A DNA stretch of 64,000 nucleotides from Shigella phage Sf25. Shown here in pieces: positions 1,916 to 63,135 of this stretch (position 1 is the first letter of the stretch; each line of letters begins with the position of its first letter). Position numbers and translations under genes: made by a program. The stretch lies in sequence record MF327009; one strand, given 5' to 3'. The notes under the pieces were generated by a model. The model was given only the letters and a program-made list of their open reading frames with translations, searched no databases and was not told the DNA's origin.

Positions 1916-3626
1916 TAACCTTAATTGGTTTGTTGGTGTTGTTGAAGATAGAATGGACCCATTAAAATTAGGTCGTGTTCGTGTTCGTGTGGTTGGTCTG
2001 CATCCACCACAAAGAGCACAAGGTGATGTAATGGGTATTCCAACTGAAAAATTACCATGGATGTCAGTTATTCAACCTATAACTTCTGCAGCAATGTCTG
2101 GAATTGGAGGTTCTGTTACTGGACCGGTAGAAGGAACTAGAGTTTATGGTCATTTTTTGGACAAATGGAAAACTAACGGAATTGTCCTTGGCACGTATGG
2201 TGGAATAGTTCGCGAAAAACCGAATAGACTTGAAGGATTTTCTGACCCAACTGGGCAATATCCTAGACGTTTAGGAAATGATACTAACGTACTAAACCAA
2301 GGCGGTGATGTAGGATATGATTCCTCTTCTAATGTTATTCAAGATAGTAACTTAGACACTGCAATAAATCCTGATGATAGACCATTATCAGAAATTCCAA
2401 CTGATGATAATCCAAATATGTCAATGGCTGAAATGCTTCGCCGCGATGAAGGATTAAGACTAAAAGTTTATTGGGATACCGAAGGATATCCGACAATTGG
2501 TATTGGTCATCTTATCATGAAGCAGCCAGTTCGTGATATGGCCCAAATTAATAAAGTTTTATCAAAACAGGTTGGTCGTGAAATTACCGGAAATCCAGGT
2601 TCTATTACAATGGAAGAAGCGGTAACTTTATTTGAACGTGATTTAGCTGATATGCAACGTGACATTAAATCACATTCTAAAGTTGGCCCAGTTTGGCAAG
2701 CGGTTAATCGTTCTCGTCAAATGGCATTAGAAAATATGGCATTTCAGATGGGTGTTGGCGGTGTAGCTAAATTTAACACAATGTTAACTGCTATGTTAGC
2801 CGGAGATTGGGAAAAAGCATATAAAGCTGGTCGTGATTCATTGTGGTATCAACAAACAAAAGGCCGTGCATCTCGTGTTACCATGATTATTCTTACAGGG
2901 AATTTGGAATCATACGGTATTGAAGTGAAAACACCGGCTAGGTCTTTGTCTGCAATGGCTGCTACTGTAGCAAAGTCTTCTGACCCGGCTGACCCTCCTA
3001 TTCCGAATGATTCGAGAATTTTATTTAAAGAACCTGTTTCTTCATATAAAGGTGAATATCCGTATGTTCACACAATGGAAACTGAAAGCGGTCATATTCA
3101 GGAATTTGACGATACCCCGGGACAAGAACGATACAGATTAGTTCATCCAACTGGAACTTATGAAGAAGTATCACCGTCAGGAAGAAGAACAAGAAAAACT
3201 GTTGATAATTTGTATGATATAACCAACGCTGATGGTAATTTTTTGGTAGCCGGTGATAAAAAGACTAACGTCGGTGGATCAGAAATTTATTACAACATGG
3301 ATAATCGTCTTCACCAAATAGATGGAAGCAATACGATATTTGTGCGTGGCGATGAAACTAAGACAGTTGAAGGTAATGGAACTATCCTAGTTAAAGGCAA
3401 TGTTACTATTGTAGTTGAAGGTAATGCTGACATTACAGTTAAAGGAGATGCTACCACTTTAGTTGAAGGAAATCAGACTAATACAGTAAATGGAAATCTT
3501 TCTTGGAAAGTTGCTGGGACAGTTGATTGGGACGTTGGTGGTGATTGGACAGAAAAAATGGCATCTATGAGTTCTATTTCATCTGGTCAATACACAATTG
3601 ATGGATCGAGGATTGACATTGGCTAA
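1899..3626 (+). CDS. 5: gp5 baseplate hub subunit / tail-associated lysozyme (cell-puncturing spike)
   Basis: 575 aa; T4-lysozyme-like segment (EGLRLKVYWDTEGYPTIGIGHL); C-terminal VxGxxxV beta-helix repeats. Confidence 0.95.
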   Translation: MEMISNNLNWFVGVVEDRMDPLKLGRVRVRVVGLHPPQRAQGDVMGIPTEKLPWMSVIQPITSAAMSGIGGSVTGPVEGTRVYGHFLDKWKTNGIVLGTYGGIVREKPNRLEGFSDPTGQYPRRLGNDTNVLNQGGDVGYDSSSNVIQDSNLDTAINPDDRPLSEIPTDDNPNMSMAEMLRRDEGLRLKVYWDTEGYPTIGIGHLIMKQPVRDMAQINKVLSKQVGREITGNPGSITMEEAVTLFERDLADMQRDIKSHSKVGPVWQAVNRSRQMALENMAFQMGVGGVAKFNTMLTAMLAGDWEKAYKAGRDSLWYQQTKGRASRVTMIILTGNLESYGIEVKTPARSLSAMAATVAKSSDPADPPIPNDSRILFKEPVSSYKGEYPYVHTMETESGHIQEFDDTPGQERYRLVHPTGTYEEVSPSGRRTRKTVDNLYDITNADGNFLVAGDKKTNVGGSEIYYNMDNRLHQIDGSNTIFVRGDETKTVEGNGTILVKGNVTIVVEGNADITVKGDATTLVEGNQTNTVNGNLSWKVAGTVDWDVGGDWTEKMASMSSISSGQYTIDGSRIDIG

Positions 3627-4150
3627 TATACTTCCAATGAGCGCTGATTTAGGAGAATCCATGGAAGGTTCTTCTATCGACGTCACCTTTACCGCTCAAT
3701 TAGAAACAGGTGAAACGTTAGTATCTATAAATATAACTAGTTACGAAGAAACTCCTGGGGTTTTAGTAGAAGAAAATCGTTTATATGGAACGTATGAATC
3801 TGTATTTGGATTTGGAAATGATGCGTTGAAATATCGTTTAGACGTTGGTGGTGATTGGACAGAAAAAATGGCATCTATGAGTTCTATTTCATCTGGTCAA
3901 TACACAATTGATGGATCGAGGATTGACATTGGCTAATATACTTCCAATGAGCGCTGATTTAGGAGAATCCATGGAAGGTTCTTCTATCGACGTCACCTTT
4001 ACCGCTCAATTAGAAACAGGTGAAACGTTAGTATCTATAAATATAACTAGTTACGAAGAAACTCCTGGGGTTTTAGTAGAAGAAAATCGTTTATATGGAA
4101 CGTATGAATCTGTATTTGGATTTGGAAATGATGCGTTGAAATATCGTTTA
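3531..4150. repeat. perfect tandem duplication, 2 x 310 bp (3531-3840 and 3841-4150)
   Basis: identical sequence at offset 310; spans gene 5 3' end and gene 5.1 5' end. Confidence 0.95.
3601..3936 (+). other. chimeric ORF created by the duplication: first 80 codons of 5.1 fused in frame to last ~30 codons of gp5
   Basis: 112-aa ORF; C-terminus VGGDWTEKMASMSSISSGQYTIDGSRIDIG is identical to the gp5 C-terminus. Confidence 0.7.
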
Positions 4151-4465
4151 GATAATGAATTTAAAACCGCTGCTTCATGGGAAGACCTTCCAACTGATTC
4201 TAATACTCAGTTATATTTATGGAAAGCTCCTCAAAACCTCCAGAAGACATTCACTTACGAAGTAACATTAATATATGACTACCAAGAACAAGGTGAATCT
4301 GGAGGTTCTGGTAGTAATTCTAGGTCATCTTCTGATACTACTGAACCGACAGATCCTCCTGCTCTAGTAAGAAAAACTCTCGTTAAAAATTATACTAAAA
4401 CTATAGTTGGAAATTGGAGTCGTTGGGCTAATAAACTGAGAAGCTACGTGTATGAGAGGCCATAA
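3911..4465 (+). CDS. 5.1: gene 5.1-like protein (intact second copy)
   Basis: 184-aa ORF from ATG 3911, follows gene 5 as in T4. Confidence 0.7.
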   Translation: MDRGLTLANILPMSADLGESMEGSSIDVTFTAQLETGETLVSINITSYEETPGVLVEENRLYGTYESVFGFGNDALKYRLDNEFKTAASWEDLPTDSNTQLYLWKAPQNLQKTFTYEVTLIYDYQEQGESGGSGSNSRSSSDTTEPTDPPALVRKTLVKNYTKTIVGNWSRWANKLRSYVYERP

Positions 4466-32834: not shown

Positions 32835-33036
32835 TTTTCACCTTTTTATTGATATGTCTTTTTCTATAGACAACTTTTTCTCGAGTTTCAAATTTATTCT
32901 TAGCAGTCATAGCTCGAGCCCATAATACAGCCACTTCTTTCGCCTGTAAGTTTAATTCACGAGCAATTTCAATGAATGACTTTCCAGACTCATGAAGAGT
33001 AAACACCACAACCTCAGTTCTCATAATCAATCTCAT
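32821..33036 (-). CDS. small helix-turn-helix-like protein (T4 24.3 position)
   Basis: 71-aa ORF; FIEIARELNLQAKEV resembles an HTH. Confidence 0.5.
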   Translation of the reverse strand: MRLIMRTEVVVFTLHESGKSFIEIARELNLQAKEVAVLWARAMTAKNKFETREKVVYRKRHINKKVKNGTV

Positions 33037-33326
33037 GTTATCGAGTTGGTGCCATTATATACATCATTTTCTGATTGTGTTTTGTGTGCTTTCAAAATGA
33101 AGAAAGGGGCCGAAGCCCCTTATGTAATACAGCCACTTCTTTCGCCTGTAAGTTTAATTCACGAGCAATTTCAATGAATGACTTTCCAGACTCATGAAGA
33201 GTAAACACCACAACCTCAGTTCTCATAATCAATCTCATGTTATCGAGTTGGTGCCATTATATACATCATTTTCTGATTGTGTTTTGTGTGCTTTCAAAAT
33301 GAAGAAAGGGGCCGAAGCCCCTTATG
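32923..33326. repeat. perfect tandem duplication, 2 x 202 bp (32923-33124 and 33125-33326)
   Basis: identical at offset 202; covers the 5' 38 codons of the small HTH gene, its upstream region and a GGGGCC-GAAG-CCCC hairpin. Confidence 0.95.
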
Positions 33327-45393: not shown

Positions 45394-45424
45394 TTTGTGT
45401 TCCTCATGTTATGTCAGTAAGATT

Positions 45425-45453
45425 ACTATAACACAACACGAGGGACTTGTAAA
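45425..45453 (-). promoter_or_regulatory. sigma70-like early promoter (-35 TTTACA, 17-nt spacer, extended -10 TGtTATAGT)
   Basis: reverse complement of 45401-45454 reads GTTTACA...TGTTATAGT; the 54-bp element is identical to 61491-61544. Confidence 0.65.
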
Positions 45454-47511
45454 CTACATCTTGAACTTTTTAGACATTCCGTTGATGTTAACCAAAGAAG
45501 CCAAGATTTGAGAAACTTCGTTTTCCTCTTCTTTTGATTCTTCTACGAGGAATTGATTAAACCCAGCCATTGGACGAACTTCGCCAGTTTCCATTAGATG
45601 ATCGCCATCATATACCGATTCTTCTAATTGTTCAGAAGGAGGAACGATTGTGCCTTCGATTAGATACTTGTTATAAGCAGTTTCTTTCATCATGTACGTG
45701 CTTACTTTATTAATCTTCAACAAAATTCCACGCGGTAGAATAACTTCAGCTTCTGATGGAAATCCTGATAAATGACCTGGAACGATAACTTTGATTCGCT
45801 CAGCTCCTTTAATTACCATACCCACGCTAGTTTCAGCATCTTCATTAGCATATGTAGAATGACTACCCATATGCATCAAATCTTCTGCATCAATGGAACC
45901 TTCTCCTTCACCAGAAAATACTGCGCCGGAATCATCTAGAGCCATATAGTTTTTACCATGCTCACCGAAGATATTTGGTTTAAGCGATGTTGATACGAAG
46001 TTCTTGAAATAGAACATTTTATTTTCAATGTTATGACGCAAAGTTTTAAAGGTAACTTCTTGCCCACGATAAAGAGTAGTTCCTGGAGGAAGAACTGAAC
46101 CTTTAGCAAATGCAGAATCCAACGTCTCGATGTGTTTAATAGCTCGTTCCATATATTCTTCACGGGTAGAATCAGGTTTACCTAAAAGGAACGAGTTCAT
46201 TTCAACATATGAATCTGCACAATAATCTTCAATTACATCAGACTCAGCCTGAGTTAATCCTTTTGGAGTTACTTCAGTGCTTGCGTATTCATATGCCTGA
46301 GCGGCAGATTCATTAATCAATTTATAAATGCCATTCATGACAAATTGAATAATAGCTGTCTTTTCATCTGGTGTAGCTTTAGAACCTTTAACTAAATCAT
46401 TGATAATTTTCTTAATAACATCAAAGCTATTAGAAATATTAATGTCAGCAAGATCGCTTAAAATTTTATCAGTTTTATAATCAAAGAATTCTTTATTCTT
46501 TAAATATTCTTGAGAACCTTGATATGTTATATCGCTCTGCAACTTGATAGATGGATCACGTAAACGTGCATGGGCTAATGCAATATGATTTCGGAAACTT
46601 TCTAGTTCATAATCGTTAGATTTAAAACGAGAAGCACTTCTCATACCACCGATAGCTCCTTTGCTAAAGTTTGAACCAATCTGAATAACGCCAGAGTTCA
46701 TCGGACCTTCTGCTTTATATACCGGAACTTTAGATTCAAACTCTTGATATTTCTTAGCAGCGAAGCTATCACCCTGAAGTGAAGCATCAACAGTAGAATA
46801 TTGAGCTTGTGCTGCTAATCGACGACTAATTTTAGTTTTCTGAATAACAGCTTGATCCGTGCGCTTATCATTTTCTAAAGCAATAGAAGCAGCAACAGCG
46901 ACAGCTTTAGGAACAGCATTACCTGTTTTAACGTCTACATAAACATCACCAACCTTTGATTCAACTTTTGTGAATAACTCAGTTGAAATAGGAGGTACAC
47001 CTGGAATGTCTTCTAAATTGGCATTTTTACGGTAAACCATAATATATGCATATTTCTTATCATAGTCCCAGATTTCCTTTAAAAGAACATATCGACCTGC
47101 TCCTTTAGTACGTACTAAACGGTCAGCAATAACTTGCATTTGACGAGCAGCGCCATTTGTTTTACTCTTTAGTACGCGGAATAAGCATGCATCAATTTTA
47201 TACTGTTTCATTGTTTGAAGAGCAGTATCAAAAACAGCATTAATGACGCCAATTGGATTTCCACCCAAGTTTTTAAGCTTGACTAACGATAATTTCTCGT
47301 TGACACCTATCATTACGATATGCATCATTTTGTCGCCTGGCTTAACGTTTTTATTCGTATCACCGCCAGAGGTGTATGTACAAAATCTAAATCCAGGAAG
47401 CACGCTTTCTTCACCGGCTTGAATAGCAAAAATTTGTGGTATTTTATGCTTAGGATTTAAGTTAACAACCGGCGCCGAAGCGCCGTCAAATAATTCTGTA
47501 ATAAGTTCCAT
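45454..47511 (-). CDS. Alt-family ADP-ribosyltransferase paralog
   Basis: 685 aa; N-terminal MELITELFD shared with Alt; ART motifs YRGQ, FVSTSL, SEAEVILPRG. Confidence 0.85.
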   Translation of the reverse strand: MELITELFDGASAPVVNLNPKHKIPQIFAIQAGEESVLPGFRFCTYTSGGDTNKNVKPGDKMMHIVMIGVNEKLSLVKLKNLGGNPIGVINAVFDTALQTMKQYKIDACLFRVLKSKTNGAARQMQVIADRLVRTKGAGRYVLLKEIWDYDKKYAYIMVYRKNANLEDIPGVPPISTELFTKVESKVGDVYVDVKTGNAVPKAVAVAASIALENDKRTDQAVIQKTKISRRLAAQAQYSTVDASLQGDSFAAKKYQEFESKVPVYKAEGPMNSGVIQIGSNFSKGAIGGMRSASRFKSNDYELESFRNHIALAHARLRDPSIKLQSDITYQGSQEYLKNKEFFDYKTDKILSDLADINISNSFDVIKKIINDLVKGSKATPDEKTAIIQFVMNGIYKLINESAAQAYEYASTEVTPKGLTQAESDVIEDYCADSYVEMNSFLLGKPDSTREEYMERAIKHIETLDSAFAKGSVLPPGTTLYRGQEVTFKTLRHNIENKMFYFKNFVSTSLKPNIFGEHGKNYMALDDSGAVFSGEGEGSIDAEDLMHMGSHSTYANEDAETSVGMVIKGAERIKVIVPGHLSGFPSEAEVILPRGILLKINKVSTYMMKETAYNKYLIEGTIVPPSEQLEESVYDGDHLMETGEVRPMAGFNQFLVEESKEEENEVSQILASLVNINGMSKKFKM

Positions 47512-51573: not shown

Positions 51574-51762
51574 TTAGAATGCTCCTTGGAAAATATTATC
51601 ACCACAAGTAGGTCTATTATACAAATACTCTATGCCACCAGGTTTAATATAGTTCCATGTCTGAAACGGATGTGTCTGATATGGATGATATAGATGATTA
51701 TAAGGATTAAACCCAGGAGTTCTCCAGGTAGTGTTCCAACGAAAAGAATCATTTTTAATCAT
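51574..51762 (-). CDS. hypothetical small protein (possibly the 3' part of the upstream HAD gene)
   Basis: 62-aa ORF whose frame stays open upstream into the HAD gene 3' end. Confidence 0.4.
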   Translation of the reverse strand: MIKNDSFRWNTTWRTPGFNPYNHLYHPYQTHPFQTWNYIKPGGIEYLYNRPTCGDNIFQGAF

Positions 51763-51779
51763 CTTTTCAATTACATCTT

Positions 51780-52412
51780 TTATAGCTTTTTCACTATCAA
51801 AACTTTCTTTATTTTCCTTCGGTGAAAAAGTTTATTTTCTACATCATTCCATGTATAAACTCGCTGCGCAGTTTTTGGAATATTGTCACGCTCTCCTCGA
51901 GCCATCCAATAAACAGGAACATTTAATATTTCACTCGCATGATCGCAATGATGCGCGAGATCGTCAATATAACAAATTACGTTATATTTCTCTTTTGCCT
52001 TTTTGAACAACTCTTCTTTTGAAGAATCATGACCACACATCATTACTTCCGAGAAGGCGCCAGGAAAAAGAGCATTCAAATTAAATTGACGATTCAACAG
52101 AGCGTCAATAGAATCACCCAATGCTGTAACAGCTACAAAATTATAATCTTCTTTTAGTTTGTTAATTACACACAGGGCATCTTTATATGGAGACAAGTAA
52201 CGAATAAAATCTGATCGATTATATTTTTCAATTAACTTGACACCAAGTTCTTCATCACAATTAAAGAGTTTACCTGGAGAAATAAATTTCTCATCTTGGA
52301 TCATTTTTAAAATATGTTCTAACGGAAGATTATATTTCTGAGCAAAATAAGGAAGACCTGATTGCCAGCTTAAACAAACTCCATCAATATCAGTTAAAAT
52401 AGTAGGCTTCAT
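51780..52412 (-). CDS. HAD-superfamily hydrolase-like protein
   Basis: 210 aa; N-terminal motif I LTDIDGV (DxDG). Confidence 0.65.
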   Translation of the reverse strand: MKPTILTDIDGVCLSWQSGLPYFAQKYNLPLEHILKMIQDEKFISPGKLFNCDEELGVKLIEKYNRSDFIRYLSPYKDALCVINKLKEDYNFVAVTALGDSIDALLNRQFNLNALFPGAFSEVMMCGHDSSKEELFKKAKEKYNVICYIDDLAHHCDHASEILNVPVYWMARGERDNIPKTAQRVYTWNDVENKLFHRRKIKKVLIVKKL

Positions 52413-52873
52413 AGAGAGTCTCTTAATAGGTTTAACACATCAATAAATTCAGCTTCGGTTAATATTGTATCATCTTTTGTTAGACCACTAGCCATGCTGT
52501 GCTTCAAAACTTTTCCTTTCGAGGCTTGTAATGCATCGCGAAAGCCCCTGTTTTGGAACGCTGCTTCAAAATATGCATTTGTGTATAATTCTTTCCACGC
52601 TGGGGAGTATCTTGAAAACGGAACTCCAAGCCAAAAGAGGGTCCCACGGTCCTGAGCTCTAGCATAAGACCTTCCAGCTTGTTGGGCGGCAAGCCCGGAT
52701 AACCCAAATATACGTCTTTGCTGTTCAACATTTTTCACCTTACATCCTTGGAGGAATCCTTCGAGACCTCCAAATTGGATACCATCCATAACAAAAGGCC
52801 ATTGGGCGAAATTACTTAATGCGCATGATGGCCATTTAAAATTGCTTCTAATCTCTAACTCAGACATTTTCAA
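52409..52873 (-). CDS. NADAR / YbiA-like (DUF1768) protein (T4 30.3 family)
   Basis: 154 aa; SNFAQWPF and EGFLQGCKV resemble E. coli YbiA motifs. Confidence 0.65.
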   Translation of the reverse strand: MKMSELEIRSNFKWPSCALSNFAQWPFVMDGIQFGGLEGFLQGCKVKNVEQQRRIFGLSGLAAQQAGRSYARAQDRGTLFWLGVPFSRYSPAWKELYTNAYFEAAFQNRGFRDALQASKGKVLKHSMASGLTKDDTILTEAEFIDVLNLLRDSL

Positions 52874-54465: not shown

Positions 54466-54807
54466 TTATGCTTTCTGCTTACCAAAACGAGAAGCATCAT
54501 CTCGAAGAACCGCACGTGCTCGGCGCATGATCTTCTCAACAGTTTGATTGATACGAGAGTTCGACCCACGCTTGTAGCCAGCGCGTTTAGAATCACCAAC
54601 TTTCTTTTCAACTGCTTTCTTTGCTTTAGCTTGTTTTTTCTGCTTACCAAAACGAGAAGCATCATCTCGAAGAACCGCACGTGCTCGGCGCATGATCTTC
54701 TCAACAGTTTGATTGATACGAGAGTTCGACCCACGCTTGTAGCCAGCGCGTTTAGAATCACCAACTTTCTTTTCAACTGCTTTCTTTGCTTTAGCTTGTT
54801 TTGCCAT
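54466..54807 (-). CDS. small lysine/arginine-rich protein carrying an in-frame 55-codon tandem duplication
   Basis: from ATG 54807: MAKQAKAKKAVEKK...RFGKQK then KQAKAKKAVEKK...RFGKQKA; 113 aa, about 58 aa without the duplication. Confidence 0.65.
   Translation of the reverse strand: MAKQAKAKKAVEKKVGDSKRAGYKRGSNSRINQTVEKIMRRARAVLRDDASRFGKQKKQAKAKKAVEKKVGDSKRAGYKRGSNSRINQTVEKIMRRARAVLRDDASRFGKQKA
54472..54801. repeat. perfect tandem duplication, 2 x 165 bp (54472-54636 and 54637-54801)
   Basis: identical at offset 165, in frame within the basic-protein gene. Confidence 0.95.
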
Positions 54808-57485: not shown

Positions 57486-58006
57486 GTTGATCCCAGCTCC
57501 TTACTTTCAACGTTTTTAACTAATTTGACAGAAACTAATTCGGCATCTTGGGTAATCATTACCGGGCCTTCTTCATACTCTTCAAGATATTCTAGAGCTT
57601 TCTTTTTAGCTTCTTCCTTCGTATCAGTTTGAGCATAGATATAGAACATACAACCAGTAATACCTACTACTTTCCACTTAATTTCTTTATCAGTTTTAAT
57701 TTCAAATTTACTGATAGAGTCATCTTTTTGAACTTCTTCGAAAAAATAATATTCTGACATATAAGTAATTGAAAATAACGGGCTATCTTTATAAGATTCG
57801 CCCATTACATCAACAGCTTTATACCAGCAGTCATCAATTTCACGTTTAATGCTAATAACATTTTTCGCAGAATCTATTTTTACTTTAAATGAATTTTCCC
57901 CAATAAACTTGGCAATTCGTTTATTAGCCCCGCAAGTTTCATTAAAAATATCTTTATATCCAGCTTTAAAGCGATAAACCTTATCTTCTTCAAACCATTT
58001 GCTCAT
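57479..58006 (-). CDS. hypothetical early protein
   Basis: 175-aa ORF preceded by an early promoter. Confidence 0.55.
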   Translation of the reverse strand: MSKWFEEDKVYRFKAGYKDIFNETCGANKRIAKFIGENSFKVKIDSAKNVISIKREIDDCWYKAVDVMGESYKDSPLFSITYMSEYYFFEEVQKDDSISKFEIKTDKEIKWKVVGITGCMFYIYAQTDTKEEAKKKALEYLEEYEEGPVMITQDAELVSVKLVKNVESKELGSTC

Positions 58007-58036
58007 TTCAATTTCCTCATTTGTTTTGGTAGAGCT

Positions 58037-59965: not shown

Positions 59966-60196
59966 TTATTTCTCAACCAATGATTGAATATAATCATGCA
60001 GGTCTTTAGATGCTTTACCCCACTTATTTTGGTATTCATTTTTAAGATTAGCCCGAGATTGAGCTAATAAAACATCATTAGTTGGAGGTAAAGATTCTAA
60101 CCGTTGAATCTGGCGTCCATAAATCATTGCAGCCATCTCGGATTCATAAATCAATCCTTTGAGATGTTCAAATTGATGCCATGAAATCATTTGCAT
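59966..60196 (-). CDS. hypothetical protein
   Basis: 76-aa ORF. Confidence 0.5.
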   Translation of the reverse strand: MQMISWHQFEHLKGLIYESEMAAMIYGRQIQRLESLPPTNDVLLAQSRANLKNEYQNKWGKASKDLHDYIQSLVEK

Positions 60197-60639
60197 TTAT
60201 CCTCTTTTAACTCTTGACGATAATAACATATCATAGTTTTCTGATCATGTACATATCGTTTTACATCATTAAGCCAAATGCGAAATTCCTGGGAATCTTC
60301 AAATGGCATACCGACCCAAGCTTTACCATCAATAACTTTAACTTGCCAGGATAGTTTAGCTTCATCGTATGACTTTATTTGTACTGGCCAATTAGGATGA
60401 ACTGTTTCTTTCTTTACTTCTAGAGGCTTTGTCGAACAACCAACTAGAAGACCAATAGATAATATTACCCAAGCTTTACCATCAATAACTTTAACTTGCC
60501 AGGATAGTTTAGCTTCATCGTATGACTTTATTTGTACTGGCCAATTAGGATGAACTGTTTCTTTCTTTACTTCTAGAGGCTTTGTCGAACAACCAACTAG
60601 AAGACCAATAGATAATATTACTGCTGATAGTTTAATCAT
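60187..60639 (-). CDS. outer-membrane spanin (o-spanin lipoprotein) carrying an in-frame 51-codon tandem duplication
   Basis: 150 aa; signal peptide with lipobox LLVGC; residues ILSIGLLVGCSTKPLEV...DGKAWV occur twice in tandem. Confidence 0.7.
   Translation of the reverse strand: MIKLSAVILSIGLLVGCSTKPLEVKKETVHPNWPVQIKSYDEAKLSWQVKVIDGKAWVILSIGLLVGCSTKPLEVKKETVHPNWPVQIKSYDEAKLSWQVKVIDGKAWVGMPFEDSQEFRIWLNDVKRYVHDQKTMICYYRQELKEDKCK
60314..60619. repeat. perfect tandem duplication, 2 x 153 bp (60314-60466 and 60467-60619)
   Basis: identical at offset 153, in frame within the o-spanin gene. Confidence 0.95.
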
Positions 60640-60989
60640 TTAGAAAGGTCCTGGATGTCTTCTGCGAACTTGTTGAAGGAGTTGTTGATTTGTTTTTCAA
60701 CCAATCCTGGCTTACTAGCCACCACATCCGCCTTCTTTGCGTCTTTGCGCAGCTTTTCATTTTCACGCTCAATAGCAGCAATTGCCTCACGATTTTTATT
60801 ATTCATTGCATCAATATAATTATATTGATTTTTTAAATCATTTAATGCTAAAGCATTTTCATTAGCAGTTTTTGTAATTTCTACGACAGACGTTTCTAAT
60901 CTTTCAATTTTGTGTTTTAAAACTAAAGAAGTTCCGCCCAATATAATTACAATTAATAGTAAACCTGCTGTAGTATTACTTAATTGCAT
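60636..60989 (-). CDS. inner-membrane spanin (i-spanin)
   Basis: 117 aa; N-terminal transmembrane segment then coiled-coil; directly upstream of the o-spanin. Confidence 0.7.
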   Translation of the reverse strand: MQLSNTTAGLLLIVIILGGTSLVLKHKIERLETSVVEITKTANENALALNDLKNQYNYIDAMNNKNREAIAAIERENEKLRKDAKKADVVASKPGLVEKQINNSFNKFAEDIQDLSK

Positions 60990-61483
60990 AAAGTTTTAAT
61001 AACCTCTATAATATCGTCTTGAGAAAGACCGTTAATTAAAATATGATGTTCAGCTGGAGATTTAGAAATTTTAAAGCATGCCGCAACATCTTCTGCCATA
61101 TCTGATGCACTACGATTTGGATTACTAATTCCAAGACGATGCTTTCCAGTCAAAGGATTAACGATGATATAGCATTTGCAGCTATTGATATGAACATTAG
61201 GCTGAGTCTGATTAATGAATACTTCGCACTCATACTTAGCGAGTTGATTTTCTAAAAAGACTTTCATCTCCTCAACCGCATCAGGAAGCATATCACGGGC
61301 TTGCTCAAGACGACGATTTCGATATTCTTTAATGGTCGTTTTCCGCTTGACTTGCTTAGCTAAATCTTTCTTAAGATCGGTGATATATCCAACTCGACGA
61401 TTTCCTTTAAATACAGAAATCCCATCTGTAGTATCACCGTATGCTTCAACGACCATCTCAGTAGTAATAAGCTGCAAATCCAT
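60980..61483 (-). CDS. alc: Alc, inhibitor of host transcription
   Basis: 167 aa from second Met; position between rnlA and the spanins. Confidence 0.75.
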   Translation of the reverse strand: MDLQLITTEMVVEAYGDTTDGISVFKGNRRVGYITDLKKDLAKQVKRKTTIKEYRNRRLEQARDMLPDAVEEMKVFLENQLAKYECEVFINQTQPNVHINSCKCYIIVNPLTGKHRLGISNPNRSASDMAEDVAACFKISKSPAEHHILINGLSQDDIIEVIKTLCN

Positions 61484-61514
61484 CATAAAGTCCTCATGTT
61501 ATGTCAGTAAGATT

Positions 61515-61543
61515 ACTATAACACAACACGAGGGACTTGTAAA
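61515..61543 (-). promoter_or_regulatory. sigma70-like early promoter upstream of alc (second copy of the 54-bp element)
   Basis: 61491-61544 is identical to 45401-45454: -35 TTTACA, 17-nt spacer, TGtTATAGT. Confidence 0.65.
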
Positions 61544-61547
61544 CAGC

Positions 61548-63135
<1,588 letters not shown>

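What the first reader, a model, noticed from the sequence alone, without database searches (positions are those of the whole stretch)
60314..60619. 153-bp in-frame tandem duplication inside the o-spanin lipoprotein gene
60314-60466 is repeated exactly at 60467-60619 (51 codons). The predicted o-spanin becomes 150 aa instead of about 99 aa and carries a second internal copy of the lipobox and signal-peptide segment LLVGCSTKPLEV. This could alter outer-membrane targeting or spanin function in lysis.
Basis: partly seen in the sequence, partly recalled or inferred. Interest (0 to 1): 0.5.

Follow-up and report, generated by a model that had tools for sequence, protein, structure and literature searches.

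The report
Likely assembly-made duplication in spanin gene
The perfect 153-base tandem repeat inside this T4-like phage's outer-membrane lysis gene is really in the deposited sequence, but it is one of four such private duplications in a draft-quality genome record and is most likely an unmerged contig overlap, not a biological variant.

Summary
Bases 60314-60466 are repeated exactly at 60467-60619. The minus-strand ORF 60187..60639 encodes 150 aa with a second internal lipobox, and collapsing the repeat gives exactly the commonest 99-aa T4 PseT.2-type o-spanin allele. The window is Shigella phage Sf25 (MF327009), positions 1-64000, and the 150-aa protein is its deposited gp77, a database singleton.

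I judge the biological reading unlikely, for these reasons:
- The novel junction is absent from 50,697 phage records and three large contig collections.
- All 37 homologs are 95-112 aa.
- All 10 independent contigs carrying Sf25's own flanking alleles have a single-copy 99-aa gene.
- The window holds four perfect 2.0-copy duplications (310, 202, 165, 153 bp), all private. It also has two private deletions and a frameshift that break non-essential genes.
- Sister genome Sf24, from the same submitters, has one private perfect duplication. 319 kb of T4-like sequence from other sources has none.
- The window's relatedness switches within 13 bp of the repeat edge.
- A published pan-genome study excluded Sf25 because of frame shifts in core genes.

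Best explanation: an unmerged overlap at a contig join (confidence about 0.7). A real, recent duplication remains possible (about 0.25), and only reads or PCR can settle it. Interest is low.

The parts
60314..60466 (.). Copy 1 of the 153-bp unit (codons 59-109 of the minus-strand ORF as deposited)
   Evidence: exact identity with copy 2
60467..60619 (.). Copy 2 of the 153-bp unit. The novel junction is 60466|60467, and 2 bp 'AC' (60620-60621) continue the period
   Evidence: Junction 40-mer absent from 50,697 phage records. Junction 34-mer absent from the viral, metagenome and genome contig collections
60187..60639 (-). o-spanin gene (T4 PseT.2 homolog) as deposited: 150 aa, lipobox Cys17, second lipobox Cys68, conserved C-terminal Cys138 and Cys149 (equivalent to Cys87 and Cys98). 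It is 99 aa after collapsing the repeat
   Evidence: PF26831 Phage_T4_Spanin on the single-copy homologs
60636..60989 (-). i-spanin gene (T4 PseT.3 homolog, 117 aa), overlapping the o-spanin start by 4 bp. This is the 'separated' two-component spanin arrangement
   Evidence: (Sf25_gp78, 'Spanin Rz'); Kongari et al. 2018, PMC6139136
60302..60313 (.). Interval in which the window's relatedness switches. To the right, 60314 to 62465, there are 0 mismatches to contigs L003 and L004. To the left there are 53 mismatches in 2000 bp, the first at 60301
   Evidence: The best-relative lists for the left and right flanks do not overlap
3531..4152 (.). Sibling feature: perfect 310-bp x 2 tandem duplication spanning the 3' end of gene 5 and the 5' part of gene 5.1. 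Private to this record
32923..33326 (.). Sibling feature: perfect 202-bp x 2 tandem duplication covering the 5' part of gene 24.3 and the upstream spacer up to the hoc stop codon. Private to this record
54472..54802 (.). Sibling feature: perfect 165-bp x 2 in-frame tandem duplication in gene 30.9 (127 aa, against 70-72 aa in the other listed members of its 33-member cluster). Deposited as Sf25_gp62 and private to this record

Best explanation
The gene is an ordinary T4-type outer-membrane spanin (a PseT.2 homolog). It is a lipoprotein that, together with the adjacent inner-membrane spanin (a PseT.3 homolog), disrupts the outer membrane at the last step of lysis. The 153-bp perfect duplication inside it is most likely not present in the phage. 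It is probably a finishing artefact of the deposited Shigella phage Sf25 genome. Two assembled pieces that overlapped by about 155 bp were probably joined end to end without merging the overlap, which writes the shared stretch twice. The same process would explain the three other perfect duplications, where overlaps were kept. It would also explain the private deletions, where adjacent pieces were butted together across a small gap. What is shown: the repeat exists in the record, it is unique to it, it has siblings in the same record, and relatedness switches at its edge. What is inferred: that a contig join is the cause.
For: (1) Uniqueness. The junction is absent from 50,697 phage records (the method was validated by the positive control) and from the viral, metagenome and genome contig collections. 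The 150-aa protein is a one-member, one-contig cluster, while the collapsed 99-aa allele has 208 members on at least 1000 contigs. All other homologs are 95-112 aa.
(2) It is not alone. There are four perfect 2.0-copy duplications (310, 202, 165, 153 bp) in 64 kb, and each junction is private. There are none in 319 kb of T4-like DNA from 20 other sources. There is one private 265-bp perfect duplication in sister genome Sf24 from the same submitters.
(3) Other defects in the same stretch. A private deletion of about 67 bp frameshifts gene 5.4, a private 132-bp deletion removes the hoc start and the inh end, and gene 30.2 is split.
(4) Independent literature. Sf25 was excluded from a Tevenvirinae pan-genome analysis because frame shifts in a number of genes left it lacking core-genome components (PMC8056088). 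That is incompatible with a viable phage if taken literally.
(5) Signature of a join. Contigs L003 and L004 match the window perfectly from the left edge of copy 1 for about 2.1 kb to the right, but differ by 2.6% to the left, starting 13 bp from the repeat. The nearest relatives of the two flanks are disjoint sets. Three of the four duplications rank in the top 1-9% of relatedness change-points in the window.
(6) All 10 independent contigs carrying Sf25's exact i-spanin or PseT.1 alleles have a 99-aa single-copy o-spanin.
(7) Junction microhomologies of 2, 0, 1 and 2 bp are what chance gives.
(8) Established knowledge: T4 recombines efficiently between short homologies, so perfect tandem repeats of 150-310 bp are unstable. 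Four coexisting in one clone would be unexpected.
Against: No reads are available, so the artefact is inferred and not shown. The source paper's assembly methods could not be read.

All six structural anomalies in the window spare essential genes. Both intragenic duplications are in frame (1/9 by chance), and the other two span gene boundaries and leave intact gene copies. Roughly 60% of the window is essential structural genes, by my own estimate from the gene map. This pattern is what selection on real mutations would produce. Under the artefact model it needs the extra assumption that contigs break preferentially in variable, non-essential regions.

A single-contig assembler would only output a tandem duplication if some reads spanned the junction, so the artefact model requires a fragmented assembly that was concatenated.

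The lineage-switch test is clear only at this duplication and at the 132-bp deletion. It is absent at the 310-bp duplication and unresolved at the 165-bp one. Within the window itself no essential gene is actually broken.
Confidence: 0.7

Rival explanations
1. The duplication is real and recent. It would be an in-frame tandem duplication in the Sf25 stock, created by illegitimate recombination or replication slippage at a 2-bp microhomology. It may have been an unequal crossover between two co-infecting T4-like phages, which would also explain the lineage switch at the repeat edge. Signal peptidase II would cut at the first lipobox (Cys17). The mature lipoprotein would then be a complete, normally folding o-spanin module hung on a 51-residue extension. 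That extension consists of an orphan beta-hairpin segment, the hydrophobic remnant ILSIGLLVG and an extra periplasmic Cys68. Function would be retained or partly impaired, and tolerated because spanins are conditionally dispensable in laboratory culture.
For: The repeat is in frame and leaves the whole C-terminal module intact. The AF2 model of the 150-aa product keeps the hairpin (99-110) and helix (113-140) at pLDDT 79-92, the same as wild-type hairpin 48-59 and helix 62-89. All six anomalies in the window avoid essential genes. The submitters annotated the product as a gene, and in Sf24 they noted the similarity of the two duplicated ORFs. An unequal crossover between different parents predicts exactly the observed coincidence of duplication and lineage switch.
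Against: It requires four independent, very recent illegitimate events, plus two deletions, to be fixed together in one plaque-purified clone. No comparable event appears in 319 kb of other T4-like DNA or among about 500 related records at this locus. Perfect 150-310-bp tandem repeats should be lost quickly in a phage that recombines as readily as T4 (established knowledge). The record is independently reported to have frame shifts in core genes. If real, the allele carries risks: the breakpoint splits the near-invariant W-V|G-M-P motif in copy 1; the internal segment is borderline hydrophobic for a stop-transfer sequence (Kyte-Doolittle 19-residue mean 1.62); a third periplasmic Cys is added to a protein whose two Cys are both essential (PMC6139136); and no in-frame start codon exists in codons 31-68 that could make a normal lipoprotein from copy 2.
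Confidence: 0.25
2. The repeat is a natural, selected architectural variant of the o-spanin family, with a two-module lipoprotein in which the internal lipobox has a function such as alternative processing or dual membrane anchoring.
For: The only support is that the ORF is open and the second lipobox is a perfect LVGC followed by Ser.
Against: No other member of the family has it. All 36 other homologs are 95-112 aa, and the junction is absent everywhere. The two copies are 100% identical at the DNA level, so there has been no time for selection to act. An internal lipobox has no preceding n-region or start codon.
Confidence: 0.02

Closest known systems
Phage T4 PseT.2 o-spanin with the PseT.3 i-spanin (separated two-component spanin; Pfam PF26831 Phage_T4_Spanin)
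   Same: The collapsed gene is 100% identical to the commonest 99-aa Tequatrovirus allele (P0002, named for example in RB68). It has the lipobox Cys17, the invariant Cys87 and Cys98, the same neighbours (alc, pseT.3, pseT.2, pseT.1, pseT) and the same 4-bp overlap with the 117-aa i-spanin gene.
   Different: As deposited, the ORF has 51 extra codons repeating residues 8-58. This gives 150 aa, a second lipobox and a fourth Cys. No other member shows this.
Unmerged contig-overlap duplications in draft genome records (a known class of assembly or finishing error)
   Same: It has exactly two copies at 100% identity, lengths in the range of sequencing reads (153-310 bp), no meaningful microhomology, and several instances in one record. 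It is private to the record, a sister record from the same submitters is also affected, and relatedness changes at the join.
   Different: This could not be verified at read level. All instances happen to spare essential genes, which a purely random artefact would not be expected to do.
Classical T4 tandem duplication mutants (for example rII-region duplications; recalled from established knowledge, not tested here)
   Same: Both are head-to-tail duplications arising by illegitimate recombination, and both are unstable through homologous recombination between the copies.
   Different: As I recall, the classical mutants are much longer, were obtained under strong selection, and occur singly. 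Here there are four short unselected duplications together.

Membership tests
T4 PseT.2-type o-spanin (PF26831) | Sequence homology to PseT.2 / PF26831 | tested here: met
   all hits carry precomputed PF26831, and the top 99-aa hit is 100% identical over the shared part; collapsing the repeat gives P0002 exactly. The local Pfam copy lacks PF26831 and gave only a sub-threshold UPA_2 hit, which I treat as noise.
T4 PseT.2-type o-spanin (PF26831) | N-terminal lipoprotein signal with a lipobox Cys and a non-Asp residue at +2 (outer-membrane sorting) | tested here: met
   LVGC with Cys17 and Ser at +2. Cys17 is invariant in 21 homologs.
T4 PseT.2-type o-spanin (PF26831) | Two conserved C-terminal periplasmic cysteines (Cys87 and Cys98 in T4), both essential | tested here: met
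   present at 138 and 149 in the deposited ORF, equivalent to 87 and 98, and invariant in the family. Their essentiality comes from PMC6139136.
T4 PseT.2-type o-spanin (PF26831) | Adjacent i-spanin gene (PseT.3-like, N-terminal membrane anchor, coiled-coil) in the separated architecture | tested here: met
   the 117-aa ORF at 60636..60989(-) overlaps the o-spanin start; annotated as Spanin Rz / Rz-like spanin; only weak coiled-coil-type Pfam hits.
T4 PseT.2-type o-spanin (PF26831) | Family length of about 95-112 aa with a single hairpin-plus-helix module | tested here: not met
   The deposited ORF is 150 aa, while all 36 other homologs are 95-112 aa. The feature is met once the repeat is collapsed. 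In the AF2 models the 150-aa product confidently shows only the single C-terminal module, and residues 1-60 have pLDDT below 50.
T4 PseT.2-type o-spanin (PF26831) | Outer-membrane disruption activity (complements lambda Rz/Rz1) | not testable with these tools
   Shown for T4 PseT.3/PseT.2 in PMC6139136, but not for this allele.
Contig-join (unmerged overlap) artefact | Exactly two copies, 100% identical, private to the record | tested here: met
Contig-join (unmerged overlap) artefact | Recurrence in the same record or pipeline and absence from comparable genomes from other sources | tested here: met
   Four in the window and one in Sf24. None in KAW1E185, ECP2301, Sf21 (first 50 kb) or 18 other loci.
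Contig-join (unmerged overlap) artefact | Discontinuity of relatedness at the join | tested here: inconclusive
   Clear at this duplication and at the 132-bp deletion. Top 1-9% of change-points for three of the four duplications. Absent at the 310-bp duplication and unresolved at the 165-bp one.
Contig-join (unmerged overlap) artefact | No reads span the junction, and coverage does not support two copies | not testable with these tools
   No reads are available. The Sf25 record is not in the annotated collection, and the source paper is not held.

The most novel reading that the evidence does not exclude
All four perfect duplications, and the two deletions, are real. On this reading Sf25 is a freshly made illegitimate recombinant between co-infecting T4-like phages. 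The spanin duplication would mark the exact crossover point between a KAW1E185-like left arm and an L003-like right arm. It would be a rare snapshot of how mosaic boundaries in T4-like genomes are first created, before homologous recombination erases the duplicated scar. The phage would also express an o-spanin with a 51-residue tether extension and an internal, unprocessed lipobox.
Probability: 0.2. Interest if true: 0.5.

Novelty: not a real feature. Interest (0 to 1): 0.12.

Why it matters
If the duplication is an artefact, as I think, its main value is as a curation warning. The Sf25 record (MF327009) and its derived protein entries carry sequences that probably do not exist in the phage. 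Examples are the 150-aa 'outer membrane lipoprotein Rz1' AUV63357.1 / A0A2K9VM38 and the 127-aa gp62. These entries can mislead spanin classifiers, length statistics and pan-genome work. If the duplication is real, it would be a natural experiment on how much extra tether length, an internal hydrophobic segment and an extra cysteine a T4-type o-spanin tolerates. The set of four duplications would also document illegitimate inter-phage recombination caught in the act. Neither reading changes what is known about how spanins work.

Tried and rejected
- I tried to read the Sf25 record directly, but MF327009 is not in the annotated collection.
- I tried to read the source paper, Doore et al. 2018, for its sequencing and assembly methods. 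It is not held under either its DOI or its PMC id.
- An exact look-up of the 150-aa protein among called genes in public assemblies found nothing, and an exact look-up of the window's gp5 allele also found nothing. So the lineage-switch test could not be sharpened at the 310-bp duplication.
- The lineage-switch test at the 165-bp duplication, using 19 relatives, was uninformative, because no relative is identical on either side.
- The local Pfam scan gave only a sub-threshold UPA_2 hit for the o-spanin. I rejected it as noise, since the real family, PF26831, is missing from that copy.
- There is no solved structure of a homolog in the PDB.
- P0030, a 105-aa ENA fragment, was considered as a possible second sighting of the junction. 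It is an unrelated frameshifted fragment.
- I considered whether an internal start could produce a normal lipoprotein from copy 2 and rejected it. There is no ATG, GTG or TTG in frame in codons 31-68.
- I considered whether the repeat could be a natural family feature and rejected it on length and junction evidence.
- The low confidence for residues 1-60 in the AF2 model of the 150-aa product is not informative, because the homologs aligned to the second copy and left the first without coverage.
- Unresolved detail: UniRef lists the 150-aa entry as 'n=2, Tax=root'. The second member could not be identified. The 15-billion-sequence collection holds only one copy, on one contig.

Full report
**Observation.** The repeat is exactly as described. 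Tandem Repeats Finder gives 60314-60621, period 153, 2.0 copies, 100% identity and no indels. A direct comparison confirms that the two units are identical and that the periodicity continues for 2 more bases ('AC'). The repeat lies in a minus-strand ORF, 60187..60639, of 150 aa. The protein is MIKLSAV[ILSIGLLVGCSTKPLEV...DGKAWV][ILSIGLLVGCSTKPLEV...DGKAWV]GMPFEDSQ...KCK. It has LVGC lipoboxes at Cys17 and Cys68 and cysteines at 17, 68, 138 and 149.

**Context.** The neighbours are those of phage T4: polynucleotide kinase pseT, two small ORFs, the o-spanin, a 117-aa i-spanin overlapping it by 4 bp, alc, and RNA ligase 1. About 500 Tequatrovirus records match the region at 90-99% identity. The 150-aa product is identical to AUV63357.1, Shigella phage Sf25 gp77. 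Sister genome Sf24 (MF327008) starts at the same base and has gene 5 at the same coordinates, so the window is Sf25 positions 1-64000. The accession MF327009 is confirmed in PMC6563131.

**Identity of the gene.** The gene belongs to the T4 PseT.2 o-spanin family. All homologs carry PF26831 Phage_T4_Spanin. An alignment of 21 homologs has invariant Cys17, P31, W33, P34, Cys87 and Cys98. Kongari et al. 2018 showed that T4 PseT.3/PseT.2 complement lambda Rz/Rz1 and that both Cys87 and Cys98 are essential (PMC6139136). Removing one copy of the repeat yields exactly P0002, the commonest 99-aa allele, with 208 members on at least 1000 contigs.

**Is the duplication found anywhere else?** It is not.
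- The best matching records span 1048 bp against the 1201-bp query, so they are single-copy.
- A 40-bp query centred on the junction forces BLAST's 28-mer seed to span it. It finds nothing in 50,697 phage records.
- The same test on Sf24's own duplication recovers Sf24, so the method works.
- The exact 34-mer junction is absent from the viral, metagenome and genome contig collections.
- The 150-aa protein is a one-member cluster, and all other homologs are 95-112 aa.
- Two independent contigs carry the identical Sf25 i-spanin allele, and eight carry its exact PseT.1 allele. All ten encode a 99-aa o-spanin.

**The decisive context.** A whole-window scan shows that the spanin repeat is one of four perfect 2.0-copy tandem duplications:

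| Position | Period | Location |
|---|---|---|
| 3531-4152 | 310 bp | end of gene 5 and start of gene 5.1 |
| 32923-33326 | 202 bp | start of gene 24.3 and upstream spacer |
| 54472-54802 | 165 bp | in frame in gene 30.9 |
| 60314-60621 | 153 bp | in frame in the o-spanin gene |

- All four sites are single-copy in Sf24, and all four junctions are private to this record.
- The 127-aa gene 30.9 product is also a deposited Sf25 protein (gp62). It is the only long member of a cluster whose other listed members are 70-72 aa.
- Microhomologies at the junctions are 2, 0, 1 and 2 bp.
- Sister genome Sf24 has one perfect 265-bp duplication in 168 kb, also private.
- KAW1E185 (69 kb), ECP2301 (71 kb), the first 50 kb of Sf21 and 18 other loci (179 kb) have none.

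**Further signs of a draft-quality record.**
- A private deletion of about 67 bp frameshifts gene 5.4 inside a block that is otherwise 100% identical to Sf24.
- A private 132-bp deletion removes the hoc start and the inh 3' end. The window switches from 84% to 100% identity with Sf24 exactly there.
- Gene 30.2 is split.
- A pan-genome study excluded Sf25 because frame shifts in a number of genes left it lacking core-genome components (PMC8056088).
- Sf24's own annotation contains placeholders and a frameshifted uvsW.

**Signature at the spanin repeat itself.** Contigs L003 (ENA) and L004 (Logan) are identical to the window from 60314 through the unit to 62465, about 2.1 kb. To the left they differ at 53 of 2000 positions, and the first difference is at 60301, 13 bp from the repeat edge. 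The best relatives of the left flank (KAW1E185 and others, 99.1-99.3%) and of the right flank (Maryam, RB14 and others, 96-97%) are disjoint sets. Ranked against all positions in the window, three of the four duplications fall in the top 1-9% of relatedness change-points, and the 310-bp one does not. At the 165-bp duplication the test is uninformative. A join between two separately assembled pieces explains both the repeat and the switch in one step.

**Why not simply call it real?**
- All six anomalies spare essential genes. The two intragenic duplications are in frame, and the other two straddle gene boundaries. Selection on real mutations would produce this pattern. The artefact model must assume that contigs break preferentially in variable regions.
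- An unequal crossover between two co-infecting phages would also couple a duplication to a lineage switch.
- Against this, four such events plus two deletions would have to coexist, all perfectly fresh, in a phage family whose recombination system removes short tandem repeats efficiently (established knowledge). Nothing comparable is seen in any other source.
- My weighting is about 0.7 for an artefact, about 0.25 for a real recent mutation and about 0.02 for a selected family variant.

**What the protein would be if real.**
- The AF2 model of the wild-type protein (mean pLDDT 80, and 84-94 for residues 31-99) shows a beta-hairpin at 48-59 packed on a helix at 62-89.
- The breakpoint V58|G59 separates the hairpin from the helix in copy 1. 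A complete mature module is regenerated downstream.
- In the 150-aa model that module folds as in the wild type, with the hairpin at 99-110, the helix at 113-140 and pLDDT 79-92. The first 60 residues are unmodelled because they have no alignment coverage.
- Processing at Cys17 would therefore give a lipoprotein with a 51-residue extension. The extension contains an orphan hairpin segment, the hydrophobic remnant ILSIGLLVG (Kyte-Doolittle 19-residue mean 1.62, borderline for membrane retention) and an extra Cys68.
- No in-frame start codon in codons 31-68 could yield a normal lipoprotein from copy 2.
- Possible outcomes range from near-normal function to mis-sorting or aberrant disulfides, given that both native cysteines are essential.

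**Verdict.** The sequence observation is correct and the gene identification is correct. The feature is most probably not biological. It is of low scientific interest except as a curation flag for MF327009 and the protein entries derived from it.

Noticed in passing
window 3531-4152, 32923-33326, 54472-54802: Three further perfect 2.0-copy tandem duplications (310, 202 and 165 bp), each private to this record. The 165-bp one is in frame in gene 30.9, giving 127 aa (against 70-72 aa in the other listed cluster members), deposited as Sf25_gp62.
   Followed up: yes
window ~4540 (gene 5.4, starts 4466): A private deletion of about 67 bp relative to Sf24, KAW1E185 and ECP2301 frameshifts the PAAR spike-tip gene 5.4, giving 26 aa and then a stop. 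It lies inside a 4.4-kb block that is otherwise 100% identical to Sf24.
   Followed up: partly
window ~34395 (hoc/inh boundary): A private 132-bp deletion relative to three relatives removes the hoc start codon region and the 3' end of inh. Identity to Sf24 jumps from 84% on the left to 100% on the right exactly at the breakpoint.
   Followed up: partly
window ~51577-52439 (-): Gene 30.2, a single stop-to-stop ORF of 288 aa in Sf24 and ECP2301, is split into two overlapping ORF pieces in the window. This is an apparent frameshift.
   Followed up: no
L002 42090-42619 (Sf24 record 92090-92619): Sister genome Sf24 has its own perfect 265-bp x 2 tandem duplication. It is not a multiple of 3 and is annotated as two ORFs 'similar to' each other (gp121 and gp122). 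The junction is found only in the two Sf24 records.
   Followed up: yes
window 61491-61544 and 45401-45454: An exact 54-bp dispersed repeat lies upstream of alc and again in the alt region. It contains a sigma-70-like promoter (TTTACA, 17-nt spacer, TATAGT, preceded by TG) and a ribosome-binding site. It looks like a reused T4 early-promoter cassette, and the Logan contig L004 ends there.
   Followed up: partly
window 57490-58011: A 522-bp segment absent from Sf24 but present in KAW1E185 and ECP2301, where it is a 175-aa ORF. This is ordinary mosaic gene content.
   Followed up: no
L003/L004 versus window 60314-62465: An ENA metagenome contig (ERZ27303200 k141_778181, 169 kb) and a Logan contig (SRR5371447) share a 2.1-kb stretch 100% identical to Sf25 (pseT.2 5' part, pseT.3, alc, rnlA 3' part). 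They are about 2.6-3% different on either side. This shows very recent exchange of this block among co-circulating T4-like phages.
   Followed up: partly
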